Shown here one piece after another: positions 1 to 38,498 of a stretch of 64,000 bases of DNA. A program made the position numbers and the translations under genes. The DNA is from Octopus vulgaris. Taxonomy: Eukaryota. The first letter of the stretch is position 1. The number at the start of each line of letters is the position of its first letter. The notes beneath the pieces are model-generated. The model was not told the origin of the DNA. It saw nothing but the letters and a program-made list of their open reading frames with translations, and did not search any database. The stretch is from the NCBI GenBank assembly GCA_951406725.2, contig OX597816.1:102982001-103046000 (forward strand), in the 5' to 3' direction.

Positions 1-829
1 CTAAAGGTATCTTGTTGGAAATCTTTCAGTCTTATTTTCAGGAGTATTGCATACTGGATCATATTATTCAAAGTATCATTCCATTTTTAGACAGAGAGAG
101 AATTGGCGGCTATTTTTAACAGATCTGTCATTGTTTTGAGGTGTTTATATATTGTATATCCAGCGGTGGCTTCGGTACTATACTCAAAGTCATTGGCCGT
201 TGAAGGTAGTAGAGGGTGTTACAGAGTCATGTGCCCACTAATGGACGGCGAGCCTTAGAAGAAGCAACCTAGTAGAAATAGCAGCAAAATCTTCCACAAA
301 TCATATTTTATCGTTTTAAAAAATGATGGACATATATGATAATATAGTCTTATATAAACTATGCCTGAAATAAAAAAAAAAAGATATATGCCTAAATAAA
401 GATGGAGTTGTCATGTCAGGGCTCTGTCCCTCATAGGTTTTGTTCGAACACTAAGAACCGGTTATTAAACCTCCTCCTCCCCTCCTCCCCTCCTCCTCCT
501 CCTCCTCCTCATCATCCTTATCATCATCATCATCAACAACAACAGCTTAGCGTAGATAATTACATTGATTGAGTAGCTGATAATGAGCCGTGTGAGGTCG
601 ACCATCAAAATTACTGCTCTGTGTCAGTAGTCAAATACGTTCACTGTCAATTGACTAGGCGTATTTAACCATAAATACATACTGTTTGTTAGAAACAGTA
701 CACATTTTCCAAGAACTCCCATATTTTCCAGTGAACTGATATAATTAGTGTTTCTTTAAAAACAAATGCACGCCAGTTAACTCATTGTAAAACTTAGCAG
801 CTATATTTGATTGCTATAATTAGGATATA

Positions 830-1202
830 TTCTTTTAGTTGTTTCAGTGATCTGGCTGCAGCCATGCTGGAGCACCGCCTTTAGTCGAACTAATCGACCC
901 CAGGACTTATTCTTTGTAAGCCTAGTACTCATTCTATCGGCCTCTCTTTGCCGAACCGCTAAGTTACGGGGACGTAAACACACCAACATCGGTTGTCCAG
1001 TGATGGTGGGGTGACAAACACAGGCACACAAACATATAAACATATACACATATATGTATATACATATATACAACGGGCTTCTTTCAGTTTCCGTCTACCA
1101 AATCCACTCACAAGGCTTTGGTCGGCCCGAGGCTATAGTAGAAGACAGTGGGACTGACCCCGGAGCAATGTGGCTGGGGAGCGAGCATCTTACCACACAG
1201 CC
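830..1202 (-). mobile_element. tRNA-derived SINE family A copy with internal microsatellite (small deletion in head)
   Basis: Reverse complement aligns along its length to the + copies at 21311 and 53459 (GTGAGTGGATTTGGTAGACGGAAACTGAAAG; 3' GGCGGTGCTCCAGCATGG..CTGAAAC). Confidence 0.9.
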
Positions 1203-1370
1203 TTCAGTGCGCCTGTAAAAAAGCTGCGACCACGACGATGTGTGTATAAATCTTCAAGATTGGAGGGTACAATAAACTATCGTACAAAATACAGGACACA
1301 TAAATATACTCATAGATTGTCACTAGTAATTGACTATGTCCATTCCGAATGGTATAGTGGTACAGAATAT

Positions 1371-1410
<40 letters not shown>

Positions 1411-1547
1411 TCATCCCATAAATAATGCGCGTTTTTTATGCTTCTTTTATTTTTCAAAATTAAAGTTCTTTTGTAATCTAAGATATTCTCTCCTTTGTTT
1501 CTGGGAGAACACGATAACAATAATAATAATAATAATAATAATGATAA

Positions 1548-1986
1548 CACACAGATAGAGAAATTAAGGCCAACAGACCAGATATAGTTGTCAGAGATCA
1601 TGAAGAAAAAAAATGCTTTCTAATTGATGTATCAATACCGGCAGATGACAATGCGTCTCTAAAAGAAATGGAGAAACTCTCAAAATACAAAGACCTGGAA
1701 ATAGAGGTAACTAGAATGTGGAATCTGAAAACAGAAACAATTCCTATCATAGTAGGTGCATTAGGCATGATAAAAAAATATTCAGACAAATACATAACAA
1801 AAACACCAGGACTTACAAACACATATAACATACAGAAAATTGCACTACTAGGCACTGCACACATCCTACGCAGAACACTTTCCATACAATAACCATCAGA
1901 GCATCACAACAAATCACAGCACATACCCAAGGCACACAGAGCTGCGCTCGGTAGTGAAGTGAAAGCACGCTATAAAAATAAAATTA

Positions 1987-1990
<4 letters not shown>
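1548..1990 (+). mobile_element. 5'-truncated R4/Dong-like non-LTR retrotransposon (RLE endonuclease C-terminus plus 3' UTR) in (AAT)n
   Basis: Open frame 1548-1892 reads HTDREIKANRPDIVVRDHEEKKCFLIDVSIPADD..EKLSKYKDL..IPIIVGALG..QKIALLGTAHILRR (RPD..D..K RLE signature). Flanked on both sides by (AAT)n (1518-1545, 1990-2040). Confidence 0.9.
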
Positions 1991-2040
<50 letters not shown>

Positions 2041-2260
2041 TCTTTATTGCCCACAAGGGGATAAACATAGAGGGCACAAACAAGGACAGACAAAGGGATA
2101 AAGTCGATTACATCGACCCCAGTGCGTAACTGGTACTTAATTTATCGCCCCCGAAAGGATGAAAGGCAAAGTCGACCTCGGCGGAATTTGAACTCAGAAC
2201 GTAGCGACAGACGAAATACTGCTAAGCATTTCACCCGGCGTGCTTACGTTTCTGCCAGCT
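2041..2260 (-). mobile_element. tRNA-derived SINE family B
   Basis: Reverse complement has A-box-like TGGCAGAAACG, B-box GAGTTCAAATTCC and central GCCTTTCATCCTTTCGGGG.CGATAAATTAAGTACC; several copies in the window. Confidence 0.85.
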
Positions 2261-3192
2261 AATAATTGATAATAATAATCATAATAAACCTTTATATTTT
2301 GGCACTGAGAAATGTTAATTTTCATGAGGCAATCCCTGATAACCAAAAAACAATGTTCTGTTTGTGTATAATTCATTGGAGCTTCTTAGCGGGTGTCTAT
2401 GTCCATGGCTTTATTCTTATACGTGTATGAATACATATATGCATAATTTTAGTGTATGTAAACTGGTGCGTGTGCAATATCAATAAGGCAGGACTGCCAG
2501 TTTATTTTAGCAGGAAATTGAACAATAATTCCGTTACAACGTATTTTATCAAGACAAGCTGAAAAGCTAGAAATATTTTGTTTTCAGGATATTAGTATGC
2601 GTTGAAGAGAAGCATGCGTCACATTTTTCAACGATTATATTCTTTTATTTTGGTGGTAGACTATCTAGGAAGGTCTATTCTGTTGGAGACAGAATATTTA
2701 GAAAGAATACTGTTGTTTCTATGTATGTAAAAAATGGCTATCATTGATTAGGTGCGCATGTTGATATATATAACATACTAATCGTTGATTGGTTGATGAA
2801 AATTAGTTCAATTTATTCACTCGTCAATTAAAGCTGTGAATGATATCGATTGGGCTGCCGATACGTCACGAAATAAAGTTCACTCATTTCCAGGAGAAAT
2901 TCATTACATTATTTTAATACAAAAGAATATCATATATATATATATAATATAGATGAAAGACTTCAATAAACTAGTATTATCCAAGATATTAACACCCTAC
3001 TTCAGTGTTTGAAATTTCAAGCAAAGGATATAACCCTTACATTATCTGTTGATCGAAAGTTTTAGAGTGTGAACCAGCAAATTTCAATTTTACTCCGTTT
3101 CAATTTCACTGAGTAAGGAGCAGAAAGAGTTAAAACAAAGAATAACATTCTTAAAAGTTGTTTATGTTTGTGCGTGTGTGTGTGCGTAAACG

Positions 3193-3256
<64 letters not shown>

Positions 3257-3699
3257 CGTGTGCGTGCGTGTGCGTGTGAATGTAGCAATTACATCATGAA
3301 AAATGCATTTAACACACAAACCTGTTAGATTCACTAAACTTTTATATGCTTATGATATCTCATAATATAGTCATCGGTTATGACCGGTCAGAAAGTTACC
3401 ATTATTTTCACGTCTATTATTGCACTTAGAAATATTGGTGACTTAGCATATTTGCTGACCGGAGACACATAACCTCTGTAGTAACGGAGGTAAAAATGCA
3501 GTTTTCGTCAGCTTAATGTTGAAAAAAAAACACTGAAACAAATTTTTTCCGAAGCGGAACTCCTTCTAGGAGAGACGCAATTGATTCTTTTTGAAGAGTT
3601 TGAGCTGTGTCCGAAAAGGGGCAGTTTATGTCCGTTTTCTGTTGACTAGCTAGCAAGTGGAGAAGCCCAGTTTTCTAACACGATTTTTCTATCAAGCAT

Positions 3700-3970
3700 G
3701 CACCGACTGAAAATTTCACTTTTTGAATTTAAGAAGGCACACGTATCAAGAGAATCTTTTAGGATTCTTGCCCTTTTAGTCAAGCAAAGTTTGCATCGAG
3801 ATGAAGAGATGATCACAGGAAATAAATTTTTCAGTAAACGATTACACATGAACCAAGGCACAGCCTACTGAAAAAATCCTGCCATTTTCCAACTCACGTC
3901 GAAGTCTGCGGCACACCCGTGAACCATACGAAACACAAAATGTGCTGCGGCACATTGGCTGCAATCACCT
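3700..3970 (+). mobile_element. Degraded hAT (Charlie/Buster-like) DNA transposon 3' end
   Basis: Two subterminal GCGGCACA motifs followed by a terminal ..ATCACCTG, resembling hAT-derived MITE ends. No clear ORF and no matching left end found. Confidence 0.3.
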
Positions 3971-5250
3971 GATATTGACAATGCAATATGGAGAGAAGCT
4001 GGTCTTTAAAACCAGCTGGTTAAATCAATGGACAATTAATATTGATTTGTTACTTGGCATAAGGCCAGCATAACTGCCTGTAAATTGTGCTTTCGGTAGT
4101 ATCATCAAATCAATGTTTCTCCATGAGTAGTAGAACAGTATATTGATGAAAGGCAAACTCAACCCCGGTGGTATTTGAATCCAGAGTGTAAGAAAGCGTG
4201 TCTAAATCCACAATTTTTTTCTCGGTACTAACTTTTACTGATCTATGTTAAATTTATTATTGTTCTCTAAGATAGGCGCAAGATTAGCCATTTTGGGGAG
4301 AGAGAACAGTCGATAAAATCGACATTAGTATTTGTTTGATATTTATTTTATCGACTCTGAAAGAATGAAATCTGAACATTAAGACAGACATCTAAATACT
4401 GCAATATATATTTTTACCCGACGTTTTTACTAATCCTAACAATCAACTGTTATTATATTAATTGATGTTACAATAAGGTTATTGGTGAAAGTAAAGCATT
4501 CTCAGATGTTATGTATTACTTCTCTACTGGGTTTGCTTTCTTTGGCATTAAAGAAGTAACCTCTGTCTGGTTCAACGACTTGCTAGTAATGAACCCCCTC
4601 CTCAGTCAGACTCTACCGTCATATAGAAGTTCAATGGTCTGAGATGTGATGTGAACGAAGATTTGCCAAACGGATATAGAAGATGAATTGCCAATACCAC
4701 AAGAAAAGAAATGGTGAGCTATTGTGTAGTGTGCTCAGTACTTCAATTATGACTACATCTGTCAAATATACACTATTATATATCCAGTATTATTTATATA
4801 CTACCTCTGACTCAATGCTTCTTTTGTAATTAGGTATGTAATGAATTCATTACTTCCGTTTTAGGTTGTAAATTGGCAAAATTTGTTCTAGCTCTTTTCC
4901 CCAAGAGTTCAAATTCCGTTAATATCAGCTTTACTGTTTATTATTTTGTTGGACAATAAAATAAAGTATTTATTCAGGGCAGCCGACTGCTAGAACTGTT
5001 AGCGCGTCAGACGAAATGCCTTGTGGTAGGTGTTCTGTCTTCTGAGCTTTTAGATGATAAATTTAATCTGTTGCCCAGTTTAGTACCTTTGCCTGCTCTT
5101 TGGGTGCCTTTATTGGAGTTCCCTTTGTTGCACTTCTCATTTGTCTTAAAAGCTTTGAAAAAATTTCCCTCTCTCATGAAATCGTAAGAAAAAAACAAAA
5201 CAAACTACATGTATGACATATTCAGTTCTTCACTTTCTAAATTATATGTA

Positions 5251-12918: not shown

Positions 12919-13111
12919 ACAGTTCTATATTTAAGAGATATTTAAGGGATCATGTACATTATTTACATTATTTACATTTGACGGATATTTGCCGTCATCT
13001 TGTTTGTTGTTAACACAACGTTTCGTTCATCAGGTGACTTGGAGAAATTTCGAACCTAGGCTCTCGCTCCTTAGGTATTCTTCGATGATATTATTATTAT
13101 TATTATTATTA

Positions 13112-15161: not shown

Positions 15162-16414
15162 CTTCGGCTACTCGATAAGAGTTAACTATGGGATTAAACA
15201 GCAACATCAACACAGCCAATCCTGTATAGTATGTACCTCTATAAGCATACAACCATCAATCGCTGAAACGATTCCGAATAATAAAATACCTGTAATGTGA
15301 CTAGCACAAACAGTATTCTGGTCAACGTCTTCAAGGCTTGTGCTCACAAGCTAACGCTTATGCTTCTTTCTATTTATCATATGGTCTGCAAACATACAAC
15401 AGTATGTCCTTTGATGAAAAAAAACTAACACTTCAGACATTTTAAGCTATTGAACTTGATTGCTCTTATCTATAACAAATCCAGTGGTAGCGACAGTAAA
15501 GATTGCCACTTTCCCTTTTCAGTAACAATTTGTATGGTTTCCGCAAAGCCAAGCCTACTAAAGAAATAGAAGAGATCTATTTCGAATCACTGTTGCGTTT
15601 GAAAACTGGAGTGAAACAAAATTGTTGCTACTCGTGACATGTCCACCTAAAAGACACTTGGCAGTAATGTCTGCCTAACAGTCCCAATTGATTTGTGTCG
15701 GAAATTTCCTCCATAGGCCATCTCATTAAAGAACATGTTTGCCGTGTCTTTTCTAGTCTCCATTCTACCAAATTACCACCTGATTCAGTTCTCTCTCATC
15801 TTTGAAGATCTGTCATGGTGATCAAAACTTATACCACACAACCACATAACAGTTACATCACAAAATTATTTTATTAAAATTAACTGAAAATATTACAAAT
15901 ATTGAAGAAACAAATAATAATTCAGTGTTTCATAAACTTTTTGCTCAGTTAGAAGACAATTATAACAATATTATTAACAATGCACTTCAGTTATTAGATA
16001 TTAGATCTAAATGCCAAACAAGGAATTTTTTTTATTACAAACATTAACTGCATTAATTTGTGAATATACTACATAAATCATCACTTCAAAGTATACAATT
16101 ACTTGAAAAGACGCCACTATATGTATGTATGTATATATGTACGTAAGTATGTATGTATGTATGTATGTATGTATGTATGTATGTATGTACGCATGCATGC
16201 ATGTATGTATGTATGTATATATGTATATATATACACACACATACATTTATATATATATATACATATATATATACATATACATACATACATTTATAAATGT
16301 TATATTTATATGAATGTATATACTTATAGAATATGTATTCAATATATATGTGTGGTTGTGTGTGTATTTATATGTATGTATTTGTACAAATATATATATA
16401 TATTTATATATAAA

Positions 16415-17436
16415 CTAGCAGCATAGCCCGGCGTTGCCCGGGTATGTAAGAGCCCCTAGTAGGCAACGACTAATCCCGATCTAGTCCTTTCCCTCTAGGG
16501 AACGAAGGCGCATGTGTAGGTTGCAATGTCTTCTCTTCACTCGAATACTTCTGCGTATACGACGTTCCTATGCCAAGATTATGTTGTCTGGTCATGTTTT
16601 GTCTCGTTGACTGCTTGAAGTGGCGGTGTTGAGGGTAAAGTCTCGAATGTAATTTCTTCCTGGTAGGAATTGGTTCACCAAAACTTAGGTTAGTCTGGAG
16701 GTTTCGATGTAATCTTTGGTTTGTATGTGAGATACCTTGAAGATTAAGTCTAGATTTCCTCCTGTGAGTTGAATTATCGATAGCTGTTTGATAGTAATTT
16801 GGGGGAGTAAGAGAGAAGGTCGAGTTGCGTCCCCTAGACAGTCTGTGGTTTGTGTTTAATACACAAATCGGTTTGCTATGTGTGCCACATATGATTTAAT
16901 TAGCCGATTTTTTCCAGTAAGAAAGTATCCTATTGGAATAAAAAGGGCCATATAGCTCCTTGGAGCAGACATGATGCTCACTGTGAATTTAAAAAAAAAA
17001 TCCTACCAATTTGTTAAAGATATTGTCGAAAATATGTCATCTTGAATTTGAACGTGATTTCCCAAAATGGCATGATTTTATCGATTTTTTTCTGATGGTA
17101 AGGTATTGCATGGAAAACTAACGTCAGAATTAAGTTTCTTAGGGTAACATTAAGCTTCACCGTGAGTTTGGTGAAAATCGATTGCAAGTTGCGAAAACTA
17201 CAACAGAAAATGTATTGCATATGAAAAGCTTAGATTCTCGACCCCATGTCGAATTTATCAATTTTTTTTCAGAACGGGGGGAACTTTTCAAAGTTTTCGC
17301 TGCGTTAGTTTTGAATTATGACATTGGACTATGTGTGTGTCAAGTTTCATCAGAATCGGTTGAAAGCCGTGGTCAGGGTGAGGGTACAACCTGACAGACA
17401 CACAGACAGATAAACTGCCTTTTATATAGAGAGAGA
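16415..17436 (-). mobile_element. Non-autonomous Helitron (~1.0 kb)
   Basis: Minus strand starts A|TCTCTCTCTATATAAAAGG..TCTGTCTGTGTGTCTGTC..CCGATTCTGATGAAACTTG and ends in the GC hairpin CCCGGGCAACGCCGGG followed by CTAG|T. Inserted between A and T without a TSD. Confidence 0.8.
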
Positions 17437-17520
17437 TATATGCATATATAAATATATGTATATATTTGTATATATGTATATACATATATACACACATACA
17501 TACATACATACATACATACA

Positions 17521-17556
<36 letters not shown>

Positions 17557-17602
17557 TACCTACATATATACATACATACATATATGCATACATGCATGCA
17601 TA

Positions 17603-18044
17603 CTCGAAGCGACAGGTCGCGTGTTTGGCGTGGGAAACTTTTTATCGAAAAAACGATGAATACTATCTCCAACTTTGGAGCCACAACTAGCTGCCTTGTT
17701 AACTAACCGGTTAATCTTCAGATGAATTAACTGAGGGAGCCTTTTTCGACTGAAACTTGAATTTAGCATGCAGCGACTTACTACAAACAACATGGCTGGA
17801 CACAACATCAACAACAACTAATCAATCGAGGGACAGAACGAAAACAATAGCTCAACAGGTAAACAAATGTTTTCTAGCAGTAGTTATAGAAGAAACCGTT
17901 AACTACAAAATTCATTTCTCTTGGAGTTATGAATTGAATAATGATCTATTTAACTGCTACGAAAAAGCGAAACAAAACCCCACTGTCGGCTATATGAAAC
18001 GATTGAAATCATATTGGGACGATCTGCATCCAGAATTAAAGCAT
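17603..18044 (+). mobile_element. Probable 5' end (UTR + N-terminal domain) of an R4/Dong-like RLE retrotransposon
   Basis: Translation FSWSYELNNDLFNCYEKAKQNPTVGYMKRLKSYWDDLHP resembles the W..E.N....CY...GY.KR...W N-terminal motif of R4/Dong ORFs (from recall). Starts directly after (CATA)n. Confidence 0.6.
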
Positions 18045-18251
18045 TTACTGGCACTGCAAACACATTGTAAGCCACTGTTTTATTGAATGCAGAGAGTTCT
18101 GAGGTCCAAAATTTATTCGGCTGTAATATTCTTTAGTGACACGTGTTTTGTTACTGGTGCCACTGCGAGATATATTTTCATCCACCCCTAGAAGCCTGTA
18201 ACATTCTTTGTCAGATACAGAGGAAACAGTCAAATCTTTGACGGAGATGCT
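18045..18251 (-). mobile_element. Inverted RT C-terminal fragment of the same RLE group
   Basis: KECYRLLGVDENISRSGTSNKTRVTKEYYSRI/..WTSELSAFNKTVAYNVFAVPV, homologous to 31340-31515 (KECYKYPGIDKNVS..YNVFVVPV). Confidence 0.8.
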
Positions 18252-18496
18252 ACATACATACACACCTACATACATGCATACATACATACATATATACATA
18301 CATACATACATACATACATACATACATACATACATTACACACATACATACATACATACATACATACATACATTTATACATACATACATACATACATACAT
18401 ACATACATACATACATACATACATACATACATACACACACATACATACATACATACATACATACATACATACATACATACATACATACATTATACA

Positions 18497-18530
<34 letters not shown>

Positions 18531-18536
18531 CATACA

Positions 18537-18948
18537 TACCCAGTTGATGTTGAAATTCCAATGAAGGAGCCTTGAATCTAGATTAGAAACCTGTTCTTTC
18601 TCTATTGGTAAGAAATCTTGAAATCAAACTGAATAATGATATACATACATAGCTACCTACCTATCTACCTACCTACATACCTACCTACCTACCTACCTAC
18701 CTACCTACCTACCTACCTACCTATATACATACATACATACATACATACATACATACATACATACATACATACATACATACATACATACATACATACATAC
18801 ATACAAAAACACACAGTTGATGTTGAAATTCCAATGAACGAGCTTTGAGTCTAGGTTAGAAAGCGGCTCTTTCTCTATTGGTAAGAAATCTTGAAATCAA
18901 ACTGCAAAATGGCATACATATACATACATACATACATACATACATACA

Positions 18949-18980
<32 letters not shown>

Positions 18981-19146
18981 CATACATACATACATACATA
19001 CATACATACATACATACATACATACATACATACATACAAAACTACCCAGTTGATGTTAAAGTTCCAATGAAGGAGCCTTGGATCTAACGTTAGAAACAGG
19101 GTTTTTCTGTATTGTTAAGAAATCTTGAAATCAATCTGAATAATGG
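18537..19146 (+). repeat. Three tandem ~100-bp RLE-retrotransposon 3' termini separated by (CATA)n/(CCTA)n
   Basis: Units at 18537-18638, 18805-18912 and 19038-19146 (CAGTTGATGTTGAAATTCCAATGAAGGAGCC..CTGAATAATG). Same sequence as 33051-33159 and the minus-strand tail at 34312-34410. Confidence 0.88.
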
Positions 19147-30796: not shown

Positions 30797-31267
30797 GTGG
30801 CCATGACCATTCGTAATGAAAAGGAGTACTGGTGGAATGTTCCCGTGAAAGCCTCAATAAAATGTAAACAAAATAGACCTGATATAATGATTTGGGATAG
30901 AGTAGAAAAACTGCGTACAGTTCTGGAAATCAGCTGCGCAGCGGATGTTCACATAAAGCTAAAGATCAGCGAAAAATAGAATAACCATTCTACCCAGATT
31001 ACAAGTTCAGGTTTATACATGTAATTATTGCGATACTGGGATATGTTGCATTCTGCCTAAATACCAATCTTGAGAAATTAGGCTTCTCAAAACCAGAAAG
31101 GAGAAAGCTAATTCGAAGACTACAGATCCAAGCCATCACTTGGACTGTAAAAATCCGTAAAACTTTCCAGAAGTTTATCATTTAAGTATATATGAGCATG
31201 TCTAGATATGTAGTTATATGCATGAGAAAACATACATAAAACAAAGCATACAAATCTGTACGCATGC

Positions 31268-31298
<31 letters not shown>

Positions 31299-31320
31299 CA
31301 TACATACATACATACATACA
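30797..31320 (+). mobile_element. RLE retrotransposon family R-A: endonuclease C-terminus, proximal 3' UTR and internal (CATA)n
   Basis: EYWWNVPVKASIKCKQNRPDIMIWDRVEKLRTVLEISCAADV..YPDYKFRFIHVIIAILGYV..LEKLGFSKPERRKLIRRLQIQAIT, with stop and frameshift. 3' UTR matches 34430-34690 (-). Confidence 0.85.
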
Positions 31321-33040
31321 TAAAATCTTTATTCCACACAAAGAATGTTACAAGTACCCAGGTATAGACAAAAACGTATCATATGAAGGTACTGTGAATA
31401 AAGAGTGACCCGAGAATATTACAAATATTACACCAGACTTAGGAAAATGTGGTAGTCGGAATTCTCCTCTTACAACAAAACAATATCCTACAATGTATTT
31501 GTAGTACCAGTGCTGATCCCAACATTTGGGATACTTGATTGGTCTGTAGAGGAAATCCACTCCATAGATATCAAAACCCGCAAAATCCTGACAACTGGGA
31601 ACTTCCACAGAAGCAGTAATGTCGACAGGCTCTACCTAAGAAGAAATGAAGGTGGTAGAGGTCTGAGATCAGTGCAGATAGCCTTCGAATGTCATATGGT
31701 ATCACTCAGACAGCAGCAAAAATAAATATAAAATTGCAGTGCTGAAAAGTGAAGTGAGCAACATTGTACGAGTTGGCAGCGAGCTCCTCCAGCTGGACTC
31801 GCTTATCTCAGAGAAGACCTGAATGGAAAGCACTCAGCATGCAAAAAAAAAAGAAAAGAAAAAAGATTATGCATGGGTATGATGCCCAGAAGCTTGAAGA
31901 AGACAGTAGAATTGACACGAAGTGCAGCCTCTCTTGGACACAAGACCATTGCATCACATCACACTTTGAGGGCTATGTGTTTGCAATCCAGGATCAGGTG
32001 ATTGCCACAAAGTACTTTGTACAAAGATAGTGACACTCTTGTAATGTTAAGGTGCAACCGAATGCCATGTTTCTGTGGAAGACATAACGCATGTGAACAT
32101 TATTTACATTATTTACATTATTTATGTTTGACGGATAGTTGTCCTCATCTTGTTTGTTGTTAACACAACGTTTCGGCTGATATACTCTCCAGCCTTCATC
32201 AGGTGTCTTGGGAAAAGACACCTGATGAAATTACCCCAAGGCACCTGTTGAAGACTGGAGGATATATCAGCCGAAATGTTGTGTTAACAACAAACAAGAT
32301 GAGGACAAATATCCGTCAAATGTAAATAATGTACATAATCCCTCATCTCTTAAATATAGAACTGTTATTATCACGCATGTGATTAGCAGCTGTCCTGAAT
32401 TGTTGTCACGGTACTGCCTACATGTGCGGTATGATGTTGCTAAAACAATTTAGAATGCCATACGCAAAATAAAAAAGAAAACTGTCCTGAAATAAACTTG
32501 GAAAATTCCTCTGTTATGGAATACATTCCTAAACACCAACTCAAAGAATACTAGTGCAATATTCCCATCAGAACTTCTGTCAAATGTAAACATAACGGGC
32601 CGGATATTGTTGCTTGCGATAGAGGGGCAAAGGTATGTGCCGTCATAGAGGTCAGCTGCCCTGCAGATATAAATATCTCTTTGAAAATCAAAGGAAAAGA
32701 GGATATCTGTGGACAACTGTTTCGAAACCTCCAGCTTCTATACCCAGACTATGAGTTCATATTCATACCGATAATAATTGGAGCACTAGGTTTTGTTAGT
32801 AAATGCTTAAAGGAGAATCTGGATAAACTGGGATTTTCAGAAAGAGAAATCGACCGGCTAATTCATACATTGTAAGTGCTATCTGTGAGTGGAACAGTAA
32901 AAATATGCAAGAATTTTCTCAAGTACCAAATGCGAATTTGTCTGTGTTAACTACATCCCAAAGATGGAGCCTTGTATCTTTGTTGGAAACTGGCTCCCCA
33001 CTCAGTTGAAGATTCATGATAATTAAAAAAATAGAAGAGC
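31321..33040 (+). mobile_element. RLE retrotransposon family R-B (5'-truncated pseudo-ORF: RT end, CCHC knuckle, RLE, 3' UTR), nested in R-A
   Basis: YKYPG; VDRLYLRRNEGGRGL; SHFEGYVFAIQDQVIATK; C..SVEDITHVISSCP; PDI..VIEVSCPAD; FIPIIIGALG. Own tail GGAGCC..GGCTCC at ~32965-32997. Bounded by (CATA)n on both sides. Confidence 0.88.
32097..32372. mobile_element. Head-to-head inverted pair of hammerhead modules inserted in R-B with TSD
   Basis: 10-bp TSD ACGCATGTGA at 32087-32096 and 32373-32382. The minus arm has GACAC-CTGATGA-A-GGCTG..CAGCC-GAAACGTT-GTGTT (32207-32162); the plus arm is a mutated copy. Confidence 0.85.
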
Positions 33041-33050
33041 CATACATACA

Positions 33051-33159
33051 AAAATACCCTATTGCCTGTGTTGAAATTCCAATGAAGGAGTCTTGGATTT
33101 AGGCTAGAAACCAACTATTTCTCTATTGGAAAGAACTCTTGAAATAAAACTGAATAATG
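33051..33159 (+). mobile_element. Distal 3' terminus of R-A, followed by (CATA)n
   Basis: Matches the units at 18537-19146 and 34312-34410 (-). Confidence 0.85.
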
Positions 33160-33250
33160 ATATACATACATACATACATACATACATACATACATACATA
33201 CATACATACATACATACATACATACATACATACATACATACATACATACA

Positions 33251-33622
33251 CAGAAAGTTACCATCCACTGCATCTAAATTCAGGATCAGGCACTGCAATA
33301 GCCCAGGGTTCAAAGGCACACATCTTTTCAATGGCCTGCCACAAAAATTAAGAAATCTGCATAAGGTGGAAGTAGATGTCTTCAAAAAGGAACTAGACAG
33401 CCTCCTCTCCACAATACCGGATACACCAACAGCCCAACATGAGGTACAGACAAGGGCAGCGGAATCCAACTGCATTATACACCACATGGGCCAACTGCTG
33501 GTACAAAGGCACATACAGTAGTGGTGATGTGAAACACCCCAGACTGAGGAAATCAGCAAGATCACGGTGGTACTCCAGCATGACCGTTGCCACATGGCTG
33601 AAACAAGTAAAAAAGTAATAGA
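33251..33622 (+). mobile_element. CR1-group LINE 3' end whose tail matches the SINE A tail
   Basis: NSPGFKGTHLFNGLPQKLRNLHKVEVDVFKKELDSLLSTIPD..RAAESN, then GGTGGTACTCCAGCATGACC..GGCTGAAACAAGTAAAA. Confidence 0.8.
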
Positions 33623-34250: not shown

Positions 34251-34311
34251 TGTATGTATGTATGTATGTATGTATGTATGTATGTATGTATGCATGCATG
34301 TATGTATCTTT

Positions 34312-34690
34312 GCCATTAGTGTTTTATTTTAAGTTTTTTTTTTCAATAGAGAAAGAGCCGATTTTTAACCTACATCCAAGGCTCATTCATTAGAATTTCA
34401 ACATCAAGAATATATTACTGCAAGTAAGTGTGTATATGTACATGCGTAGATTTGTATATTTTGTTTTATGTATATATTCTCATGCATATATTTCTACTTC
34501 TGGAAAGTTTTACAAATTTATTACAGTTCCAGTGATGGCTTGGATCTATAGTTTTCGAATCAGCGATCTCCTTTCTGAATTTAAGAAGCCTAGTTTCTCA
34601 AAATTGGTTCTTCGATAGCGTGTTACATATCCCAGTACTCCAAATAATTACAGGTATAAATCTGGACGTGTAATACGGGCAGAATAACTA
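34312..34690 (-). mobile_element. R-A 3' end, uninterrupted (ORF end, UTR and terminus), tail in (CATA)n
   Basis: Reverse complement joins sequence homologous to 30990-31270 directly to sequence homologous to 33060-33159, then (CATA)n. Confidence 0.85.
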
Positions 34691-37469: not shown

Positions 37470-37899
37470 AGGTTTATATATATATGTATATGCATACACA
37501 CACACACACATCATACATAAAATAGATGGAATTCAGACGGTTCGACGATATGCACTCCGTTCATTGATCAACGAAAGAATTCGCCAATTTGAATTAGCGT
37601 ATAAACAGATGAGCAGTTCAGAGACGTGGGTTCACAGAGATTACTCCTAAAGCATCATCAGTGTAAAACAGTGTATGGCAAAGATGTATCATCAACATAC
37701 ACCTACAAAGTACTCCAAACAATTTAGGCCCATATATACTCTCTCAAAAGACCTGTGACTGTGTAAAGTTATGGCAAAAAATATTTGCAAAAGAGAAAGT
37801 GGAACCTCGAGATTGTTCAAAAATTGACGAATATCCATTCCTTGTGTGTTCATATGTAGATTCTTTTCAGCTGTTTAATTCAATGTTAATTTGACTGGC

Positions 37900-38260
37900 C
37901 ACCAGCTCGGTAGCAAGGTTGTGAAGGAACAGCATTAAGAATGACCTGCAGATTTTTGAAGTCCAAGTGCTTGAATCAATGAGTTGCGTTCTCGTCCCAA
38001 GGACCCAAGTTCAACGACACTTTGCTCCAGACGGATTGGCACGTATCCTGTTGCTCCAATAATAATAGTTATGAAACTGAAAATGTATCTTGGGTACCGG
38101 ATTTGCAAATTCCTTATCAGTGGCTCATTGCTGTCCTCTTTCTCCTGAATTTTTCTAATCTCTCCGGTTTCCAGAGGGCAACTAACTTCCACAATAGAAC
38201 ATATTTTTCCTTATGGTCCAACACTGGTTGTGTTTTCACTTGGAAACCGTTTTAATTACG
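37900..38260 (-). mobile_element. RLE retrotransposon family R-C, endonuclease fragment
   Basis: VEVSCPLE..KEDSNEPLIRNLQIRYPRYIFSFITIIIGATGYVP, homologous to R-A and R-B. Upstream on its own strand is (CATA)n (38272 onward). Confidence 0.8.
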
Positions 38261-38498
38261 TATACATTTTTGTATGTATGTATGTATGTATGCATGTATG
38301 TATGTATGTATGTATGTATGTATGTATGTATGTATGTATGTATGTATGTATGTATGTATGTATGCATGTATGTATGTTTGTATGTTTATATGTATGTATG
38401 CCTGTCTGTCTGTATGTATGATATATGTATATATATATATATATATAAGCACACATACTTGTATGTATACGTTATATATATTTGGATATATGTATGTA

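What the first reader, a model, noticed from the sequence alone, without database searches (positions are those of the whole stretch)
30797..33250. (CATA)n-associated RLE retrotransposons that carry their own target site and nest inside each other
Seen: R-A (30797-31270) runs into a (CATA)n tract inside its 3' UTR. R-B (31321-33040), which has its own homologous GGAGCC..GGCTCC tail, sits in that tract. R-A's distal terminus then resumes at 33051 and ends in (CATA)n. The uninterrupted minus copy at 34312-34690 shows that the two R-A halves are normally contiguous. Termini at 17603, 18537-19146, 34312 and 38260 all abut CATA on the element's sense strand. Known: R4-clade RLE elements are sequence-specific, and Dong targets (TAA)n. 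Inference: at least three sister families specialise in (CATA)n, and each R-A insertion supplies a new landing pad. That would be a self-amplifying safe-harbour system which could help explain the abundance of CATA here. I do not recall this target being described, but cannot check.
Basis: partly seen in the sequence, partly recalled or inferred. Interest (0 to 1): 0.75.

Follow-up and report, generated by a model that had tools for sequence, protein, structure and literature searches.

The report
CATA-targeting LINEs carrying their own target
Three old families of jumping genes in this octopus-like genome sit in CATA repeats in one fixed orientation, and one of them carries a CATA stretch in its tail that later copies jump into. 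The pattern likely reflects sequence-specific insertion, but these elements touch only about 7% of the CATA repeats sampled across the genome.

Summary
The nest is real. A 5'-truncated R-A copy is split at a CATA tract in its 3' UTR by a 5'-truncated R-B, and R-A's terminus resumes at 33051.

- 69 of 142 truncated 5' junctions of R-A/B/C abut sense-strand CATA; 3 abut the antisense.
- Controls: background 1.1%, co-resident TAA-type elements 0 of 17, SINEs 1 of 159.
- The internal pad is in the family: median 34 nt, range 8-239.
- It is reused: 9 of 145 search-hit copies lie in a pad.

Corrections:
- The three termini at 18537-19146 are one locally triplicated end.
- 17603 and 38260 are 5' junctions.
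- Preference for the pad over other CATA tracts is not shown.
- Only 9 of 138 CATA arrays in a 1.2-Mb systematic sample touch these families, so they do not explain CATA abundance.

The families form a deep RLE lineage apart from the TAA/Bombyx type and look extinct. ACAY targeting is known for the unrelated APE-type Waldo; nine searches found no RLE case, but Repbase/Dfam were not checkable. The scan's earlier notes show no such finding.

The parts
30797..31270 (+). Outer R-A, 5'-truncated: C-terminal RLE coding remnant and proximal 3' UTR (aligned 30800-31258)
   Evidence: blastn to the R-A working reference 3383-3862, 84%; translation shows a PD..E..K-type nuclease region with stops
31271..31322 (+). 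(CATA)13: left part of R-A's internal pad, 5' flank of R-B
   Evidence: pad present in 42 of 43 body-to-terminus junctions examined
31323..33040 (+). Nested R-B, 5'-truncated (reference 2355-3800), decayed; end of RT region, CCHC knuckle, RLE, 3' UTR
   Evidence: 79% and 92% to the R-B working reference; translation
32097..32369 (.). Secondary insertion in R-B: 273-bp palindrome with a CTGATGA hammerhead core on each strand, between 13-bp direct repeats (32084-32096, 32370-32382; 12 of 13 identical)
   Evidence: self-match; same kind as earlier scan note e1-8669363
32966..32997 (+). R-B 3' UTR stem-loop (GGAGCC ... GGCTCC), homologous to the stem in the R-A terminus
   Evidence: sequence; predicted folds of both termini
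33041..33050 (+). Right part of R-A's pad (two CATA units plus CA), 3' flank of R-B
   Evidence: matches the usual pad end before the R-A terminus
33051..33160 (+). Distal terminus of the outer R-A (110 bp)
   Evidence: 89% to reference; 40 of 1378 first-look genome candidates scored, all at 87-100%
33161..33248 (+). 3' flank of the outer R-A: TATA then (CATA)21
34314..34689 (-). Uninterrupted 5'-truncated R-A with a degenerate pad; CATA tract on its sense strand at 34253-34308
17604..18050 (+). 5' end of a full-length R-A (5' UTR and N-terminal coding region), preceded by a CATA tract at 17495-17603
18046..18253 (-). Inverted internal R-A fragment (reference 2385-2596); likely part of the same rearranged copy
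   Evidence: 91% to reference; rearrangement inferred
18537..19146 (+). Three tandem R-A termini separated by CATA tracts: one terminus locally triplicated
   Evidence: two private variants shared by these three only, of 63 termini
37861..38257 (-). 5'-truncated R-C-type copy; CATA tract on its sense strand just upstream (38273-38364)
   Evidence: 79-81% to the R-C working reference

Best explanation
R-A, R-B and R-C are decayed single-ORF LINEs with a C-terminal restriction-like endonuclease whose copies sit in (CATA)n tracts on their sense strand, likely because the element protein recognised and nicked that repeat and primed reverse transcription there; R-A carries a short CATA tract in its 3' UTR that later copies have inserted into. 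Shown: the junction bias, its strand, the fixed start of the 3' flank, the pad and the nesting. Inferred from R2/Dong biochemistry: the bottom strand is nicked between CATA units, and the conserved 3' stem-loop is bound by the RT. Inferred from pad lengths: the pad was short in the source element (a few units) and grew by slippage after insertion. Each R-A insertion therefore left two usable tracts (pad and 3' flank). This feedback was real but small, about one insertion in ten. The pad also acts as a direct repeat that lets the 110-bp terminus duplicate in tandem or insert alone. The families look extinct, while TAA-targeting relatives in the same genome are young and intact.
For: 5' junctions with sense CATA: truncated R-A 27/49, R-B 30/58, R-C 12/35; full-length R-A 20/30, R-B 4/5. 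Antisense: 3/142 truncated junctions. Background 1.1% of 20000 positions; TAA families 0/17 CATA and 12/17 TAA; SINE 1/159. In the 1.2-Mb systematic sample alone, 5/11 (p 8e-8).

3' ends: CATA tract in 38/66 R-A, 22/35 R-B and 11/25 R-C; the first four bases are CATA in 35/66 R-A and 18/35 R-B. Of 94 copies with both ends held, 11 have a long 5' tract (47 nt or more) but under 8 nt at the 3' side. Some 3' flanks are (CA)n or unique DNA, which a templated tail alone would not give.

Pad: 39 measurable pads of 8-239 nt, median 34. A complete self-nest is seen in L095. In-pad 9/145 and in-tail 5/145 search-hit copies.

Protein: RVT_1 at E 6e-22 in a real R-B copy; CCHC and PD..E..K motifs; N-terminal block shared with a Bombyx protein (E 4e-6).
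Against: About half of truncated 5' junctions (73/142) lack CATA by the strict test. Some are probably later deletions or insertions, but I did not resolve them one by one. No empty orthologous site was examined, so I cannot show that long tracts pre-dated insertion. Presence of a tract on one side does not significantly predict one on the other (p 0.12). No diagnostic target-site duplication could be read. Most loci came from similarity searches (30 of the 40 scored hits, out of 411-4694 candidates each), not random draws; a few are segmental duplicates (L018/L124). No biochemistry; no intact copy among the scored hits.
Confidence: 0.8

Rival explanations
1. Short-motif targeting with tract birth: the elements insert at only one to three CATA units, duplicate them, and slippage afterwards grows the long flanking tracts. 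The elements would then make microsatellites rather than find them.
For: 82 of 101 R-A/R-B 3' flanks begin with two or fewer perfect units. The internal pad itself grows from about 8 to over 200 nt after insertion. In L116 R-B joins directly at the start of a pad, with no CATA on its 5' side.
Against: Many 5' tracts are long and compound (CATA grading into CA, CCTA or CATC runs), like free arrays. Only 9 of 138 arrays touch an element, so free tracts are plentiful targets. This rival changes the size of the target, not the specificity.
Confidence: 0.25
2. Annealing-driven preference: the nuclease is weakly specific, and CATA at the RNA's 3' end pairs with nicked microsatellite DNA, as described for tailed RTE/CR1-type LINEs (recalled).
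For: The 3' flank starts in a fixed phase; termini that begin at the pad occur on their own (16 cases), as microhomology would give.
Against: 25 of 101 3' flanks have no perfect CATA unit. (CA)n 3' flanks occur together with CATA 5' flanks. The TAA families in the same genome show the same two-sided pattern that is read as target specificity for Dong.
Confidence: 0.15
3. One reading: the pad is a self-amplifying safe harbour that accounts for much of the CATA in the genome.
For: Nesting in pads and tails is real (14/145). In this window 9 of 32 arrays lie within 130 nt of a family member.
Against: Genome sample: 9/138 arrays and 888/9330 array bases. About 23,000 R-A termini (95% range 11,000-43,000) against roughly 320,000 arrays extrapolated from 138 per 1.2 Mb. 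Pad enrichment is not significant against tracts of three or more units (p 0.22). This window is about ten times denser in R-A termini than the sample, partly by local duplication.
Confidence: 0.07
4. Passive accumulation: insertions are random and survive preferentially in microsatellite-rich, weakly selected DNA.
For: The genome is rich in simple repeats (ACAT-class arrays 0.7% of sampled bases) and the elements cluster locally.
Against: Strand bias 69:3; motif specificity (AT arrays are about four times more abundant by bases, yet at 4 of 142 junctions); SINEs in the same loci 1/159; TAA families avoid CATA.
Confidence: 0.02

Closest known systems
Dong elements of the R4 clade (Dong of Bombyx mori, DongAg, DongBg; PMC3812793 and PMC3774820, passages read)
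   Same: Single-ORF RT plus C-terminal RLE; inserts into a microsatellite in one orientation with the repeat on both sides; shares an N-terminal block with a Bombyx protein.
   Different: Target (CATA)n, not (TAA)n. The CATA families lie across a long, fully supported branch (0.58 changes per column, SH-like 100) from the Bombyx protein and from this genome's own TAA families, at 26-33% identity. A home-made HDV-ribozyme descriptor hit one of two TAA-family 5' ends but neither the R-A nor the R-B 5' reference. An internal copy of the target in the 3' UTR was not mentioned in what I read on Dong.
Waldo elements (WaldoAg1, WaldoAg2, WaldoFs1; APE-type, R1 clade), listed as targeting ACAY microsatellites (PMC3812793, passages)
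   Same: Same repeat class (ACAT is CATA in another phase; CACA also tolerated here).
   Different: Waldo uses an AP endonuclease in insects; these use a C-terminal RLE in a mollusc, so the shared target would be convergent.
'Dong-R4' LINEs in octopus repeat annotations (PMC13282606: part 1 of 3, passages and one supplement row, 51 families, 92.7 Mb; PMC9115989: passages)
   Same: R-A/B/C very probably fall among such annotated families (not matched by sequence).
   Different: The main text of PMC13282606 has no occurrence of 'target' or 'nested', and its held supplement none of CATA. PMC9115989 has no 'target site'. The young, intact copies found here are of the TAA type.
Other microsatellite-specific RLE elements: Togen in (TG)n, some HERO families (PMC4640811, passages)
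   Same: RLE LINE lineages repeatedly specialise on simple repeats.
   Different: Different clades and repeat units; not compared by sequence here.

Membership tests
RLE-type non-LTR retrotransposon | Single ORF with an RT domain | tested here: met
   RVT_1 E 5.9e-22 in a real R-B copy; working references of about 3.8-4.0 kb align along one 1158-aa homologue
RLE-type non-LTR retrotransposon | C-terminal CCHC knuckle followed by a PD-(D/E)xK nuclease; no N-terminal AP endonuclease | tested here: met
   CRLC..EDITHIISSC, RHD, RPD..E..K motifs read in translations; Pfam finds no endonuclease family in the N-terminal ORF tested; a close homologue hits only R2 proteins in the PDB, over RT to knuckle
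R4 clade (R4/Dong/Rex6) | RT phylogeny groups with R4, Dong and Rex6 | tested here: inconclusive
   No verified R4, Dong or Rex6 sequence and no R2/NeSL/HERO outgroup was held. In a midpoint-rooted FastTree of 60 rows the CATA families form a lineage apart from the Bombyx/TAA group. Nearest named hits are Argonauta (40-60%) and then insect proteins; R2 is far more distant.
R4 clade (R4/Dong/Rex6) | N-terminal region without R2/NeSL-type zinc fingers, with the W..L..CY..GY..RL..W block (feature recalled) | tested here: met
   Block present in R-A and R-B and alignable to Bombyx XP_037866951 (E 4e-6 among 8 proteins); no zinc-finger family by Pfam
Dong family proper | Inserts in (TAA)n | tested here: not met
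   0 of 142 truncated 5' junctions with sense TAA; the co-resident R-D/R-E families do meet it (12/17)
Dong family proper | HDV-like ribozyme at the 5' end (PMC3774820, passages) | tested here: inconclusive
   No descriptor hit in R-A or R-B 5' references; the descriptor hit 1 of 2 TAA-family copies. The 150 of 171 Rfam rows shown were almost all miRNA/snoRNA models on the simple repeats, none a ribozyme. References are majority reads of decayed copies.
Sequence-specific retrotransposon | Target repeat at both junctions, in fixed orientation, including 5'-truncated copies | tested here: met
   69/142 sense vs 3/142 antisense; controls 1.1%, 0/17, 1/159
Sequence-specific retrotransposon | Target present at the empty site; specific cleavage by the element's nuclease | not testable with these tools
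   No related eukaryote genome is held; no biochemistry
Waldo (R1 clade) | AP endonuclease, two-ORF R1 structure (structure recalled) | tested here: not met
   Single ORF with C-terminal RLE

The most novel reading that the evidence does not exclude
R-A/B/C represent a deep, so far uncharacterised branch of RLE LINEs, with dozens of intact unnamed relatives in public assemblies, that reads a tetranucleotide repeat. It has converged on the ACAY target of the unrelated APE-type Waldo, apparently lacks the Dong-type 5' ribozyme, and in R-A has built its own target into the transcript, so that each insertion both consumes and seeds a site. It would give a natural pair (CATA-reading vs TAA-reading RLE proteins in one genome) for mapping how these enzymes choose targets.
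Probability: 0.4. Interest if true: 0.65.

Novelty: new variant of a known kind. Interest (0 to 1): 0.48.

Why it matters
RLE retrotransposons are being developed as gene-insertion tools, and how they recognise targets is understood mainly for R2. A lineage with a well-supported tetranucleotide target, sitting beside TAA-targeting relatives in the same genome and with intact homologues in databases, makes target determinants testable by comparison. The internal pad is a clean case of a LINE seeding microsatellites from a proto-repeat in its own UTR and being reused as an insertion site. The result also limits a tempting story: these elements explain little of the genome's CATA, and microsatellite markers at such loci may be multi-copy.

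Tried and rejected
- Target-site duplications: compared both flanks of two-ended copies; matches are trivial inside the repeat and no diagnostic duplication could be read.
- 5'/3' tract asymmetry: 42 vs 19 among copies with a 5' tract, but 42 vs 44 over all 94 copies. Rejected as a conditioning artefact.
- First count of arrays next to elements gave 2 of 142 because the adjacency rule was too strict; redone as 9 of 138.
- First junction table used a wrongly cut R-A reference; redone.
- Flank clustering for further CATA-tailed families or SINE partners gave only low-complexity chains and small SINE clusters.
- Rfam on nine loci: the 150 of 171 rows shown were almost all miRNA/snoRNA models on the simple repeats, none a ribozyme.
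- Search for intact CATA-lineage ORFs: none spanning the query without stops among 108 scored places apart from the query itself. The seven best CATA-lineage places among 42 scored all carry stops, while 33-34%-identity places, taken to be the TAA type, are mostly intact. Only the best candidates are scored, so this is not proof of extinction.
- A full ML tree did not finish; FastTree on 60 rows was used, a subset of the homologues held.
- The ESM Atlas gave no answer for P0007.
- Kojima and Fujiwara 2004 and the 2025 Nature survey of site-specific retrotransposons are not held, so their target lists were not seen.
- PMC9957312, PMC3124438, PMC5035012 and PMC13586686 (passages) added nothing on this target.
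- Considered and rejected: that the 110-bp terminus is an independent SINE. It is homologous to R-B's whole 3' UTR and follows the R-A body in 43 junctions.

Full report
Setting. The window lies at G000:C3:102982001-103046000 in a 2.8-Gb genome of 227 contigs. I call it octopus-like by inference: the nearest named homologue is from Argonauta and earlier scan notes say the same. I did not identify the record.

Observation. The nested structure is as described. The outer R-A half aligns at 30800-31258, (CATA)13 follows at 31271-31322, R-B aligns at 31331-33039, two CATA units follow, and the R-A terminus runs 33051-33160 before (CATA)21. The two outer halves map to adjacent parts of the R-A working reference (3384-3878 and 3890-4014), and the minus copy at 34314-34689 is contiguous. 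17603 is the 5' end of a full-length R-A: loci that start with it continue through the R-A body to the terminus. 38260 is a 5' truncation of R-C. The three termini at 18537-19146 share two variants found in none of the other 60 termini, so they are one end triplicated in place.

Anatomy. Majority-rule working references from genomic copies give R-A about 4.0 kb and R-B about 3.8 kb, each with one long coding region: an N-terminal block, RT, a CCHC knuckle and a PD..E..K nuclease. R-C was rebuilt only for its last 1.2 kb. A real R-B copy matches Pfam RVT_1 at E 6e-22. R-B's short 3' UTR corresponds to R-A's last 110 bp, with a shared GGAGCC/GGCTC stem. R-A has an extra AT-rich stretch between the stop codon and that terminus, ending in the CATA pad. 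Fragments are a median 89.9% (R-A, n=107), 90.4% (R-B, n=91) and 85.9% (R-C, n=42) identical to their references, against 97.1% for R-D (n=19). No intact CATA-lineage frame appeared among scored hits, whereas places at 33-34% identity, taken to be the TAA type, are mostly intact.

Target test. I scored a 12-mer matching the repeat with at most one mismatch, ending within 10 nt of the 5' junction. Data: 150 search loci (30 of the 40 scored hits for each of five queries), 40 extended loci, the window, and 120 stretches of 10 kb taken at fixed 20-Mb steps. Truncated copies: R-A 27/49, R-B 30/58, R-C 12/35 with sense CATA; 3 of these 142 had antisense. Full-length ends: 20/30 and 4/5. Background was 1.1%. 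TAA-type families gave 0/17 CATA and 12/17 TAA; a SINE gave 1/159. In the systematic sample alone it was 5/11. Fragments under 78% identity or 60 bp, junctions within 40 nt of a locus edge, and starts at the edge of a partial reference were dropped; two R-B sister fragments (0/2) were tabulated apart. At 3' ends CATA followed in 38/66, 22/35 and 11/25, usually in one phase. CATA at the 5' side cannot be a templated tail, and 11 of 94 two-ended copies have a long 5' tract with almost none at the 3' side. Against: about half the truncated junctions fail the strict test, no target-site duplication could be read, and no empty site was seen.

The pad. Of 43 body-to-terminus junctions, one had lost the pad and three held other insertions; the other 39 were 8-239 nt, median 34, with 13 at 78 nt or more. 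I infer a short source pad that expands after insertion. It is reused: L095 shows a full-length R-A inside another R-A's pad with both termini following, and R-B sits in pads in L111 and L120. Counting only the copy that was the search hit, 9 of 145 lie in a pad and 5 in another member's tail; the script missed L067, seen by eye. Pads are 10 of 220 tracts of three or more units, or 10 of 651 of two or more, in the sample, giving p 0.22 or 4e-4. Use is shown; preference is not.

Does it explain the CATA? No, not for recognisable copies. ACAT-class arrays are 0.7% of sampled bases. Of 138 merged arrays, 9 touch R-A/B/C, 11 touch a SINE and 118 neither. Ten R-A termini in 1.2 Mb scale to about 23,000.

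Mechanism. Most likely (0.8) this is protein-directed recognition of (CATA)n with tolerance for CACA, a nick between units, and reverse transcription primed from an RNA bound through its 3' stem-loop. The nick and priming steps are inferred from R2 and Dong, not shown. The main open point is whether the target is a long tract or a few units that grow later: 82 of 101 3' flanks start with two or fewer perfect units. The two readings are compatible in part, so the confidences overlap.

Relation to known elements. A FastTree of 60 rows, midpoint-rooted and without verified references, splits into a group with the Bombyx protein, other insect and coral proteins and the TAA families, and a group with R-A, R-B, R-C, Argonauta and many unnamed proteins (branch 0.58, SH-like 100). 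R-A and R-B are sisters; R-C sits apart within a well-supported subclade. They work like Dong but are not Dong by target, and R4-clade membership is likely but untested against true R4, Dong or Rex6. Prior art seen: PMC3812793 (passages) lists ACAY for Waldo and TAA for Dong. PMC3774820 (passages) places Dong in the R4 lineage with a 5' ribozyme. PMC4640811 (passages) lists other microsatellite-specific RLE families. PMC13282606 (part 1 of 3, passages, one supplement row) counts 51 Dong-R4 families in an octopus without discussing targets. PMC9115989 (passages) mentions one Dong consensus. Nine library searches found no RLE element with this target. Repbase, Dfam, the curated octopus library and two key papers were not visible and could already record it. 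The scan's earlier notes returned nothing on these families.

Verdict. This is a real, well-controlled target preference and a real self-carried target in a distinct RLE lineage, and so a new variant of a known kind. The safe-harbour amplification story is minor. Interest 0.48.

Noticed in passing
window 32097-32369: 273-bp near-perfect palindrome with a hammerhead CTGATGA core on each strand, inserted in R-B between 13-bp direct repeats in non-TA sequence; a related piece lies at about 12919-13025. It looks like the head-to-head Penelope-type insertions noted elsewhere in this genome.
   Followed up: partly
window 1547-1989 (+): Young (99% to reference) 5'-truncated Dong-like RLE element (R-D) with (TAA)n on both sides; used as the internal control.
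   Followed up: yes
L276:5085-5520 and L231 (minus strand): Full-length TAA-type R-D copies begin with a variable tandem array of an approximately 23-25-bp unit (2 vs about 10 copies); an HDV-like ribozyme pattern was found in L276 by a home-made descriptor.
   Followed up: partly
L241:2861-5116 (-), L297:4912-7104 (+): A second young TAA-targeting family (R-E) with 730-750-aa open frames; in L241 an R-D copy sits in its TAA tail, so TAA families nest in each other too.
   Followed up: partly
window 17604-19146: Rearranged R-A: sense 5' end, inverted internal fragment, long CATA tract, then a triplicated terminus. The arrangement does not fit simple twin priming.
   Followed up: partly
window 16411-17430: Non-repetitive block opening with a CCCGGCGTTGCCCGGG hairpin just upstream of the CATA tract at 17495; resembles a Helitron-type or similar repeat end (recalled).
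   Followed up: no
window 33250-33610: Unique-looking stretch after the nest that reads like the 3' end of another, AP-endonuclease-type LINE, followed by a SINE end and compound ATCT/ATCC arrays (impression from the sequence).
   Followed up: no
L031-L060, junction at about 1500: Full-length R-A 5' junctions often carry a few extra bases between the CATA tract and the element, with the same short words recurring at different loci (heterogeneous 5' ends or untemplated additions).
   Followed up: no
L271:300-1500, L216, L274: An older sister subfamily of R-B (about 70-80% identical) with a similar terminus followed by CATA- or CA-type repeats.
   Followed up: partly
proteins P0001-P0076: Many intact 1100-1200-aa homologues of the CATA lineage from unnamed eukaryote assemblies, some in clusters of 100-390 members, so the lineage has been active recently elsewhere.
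   Followed up: partly
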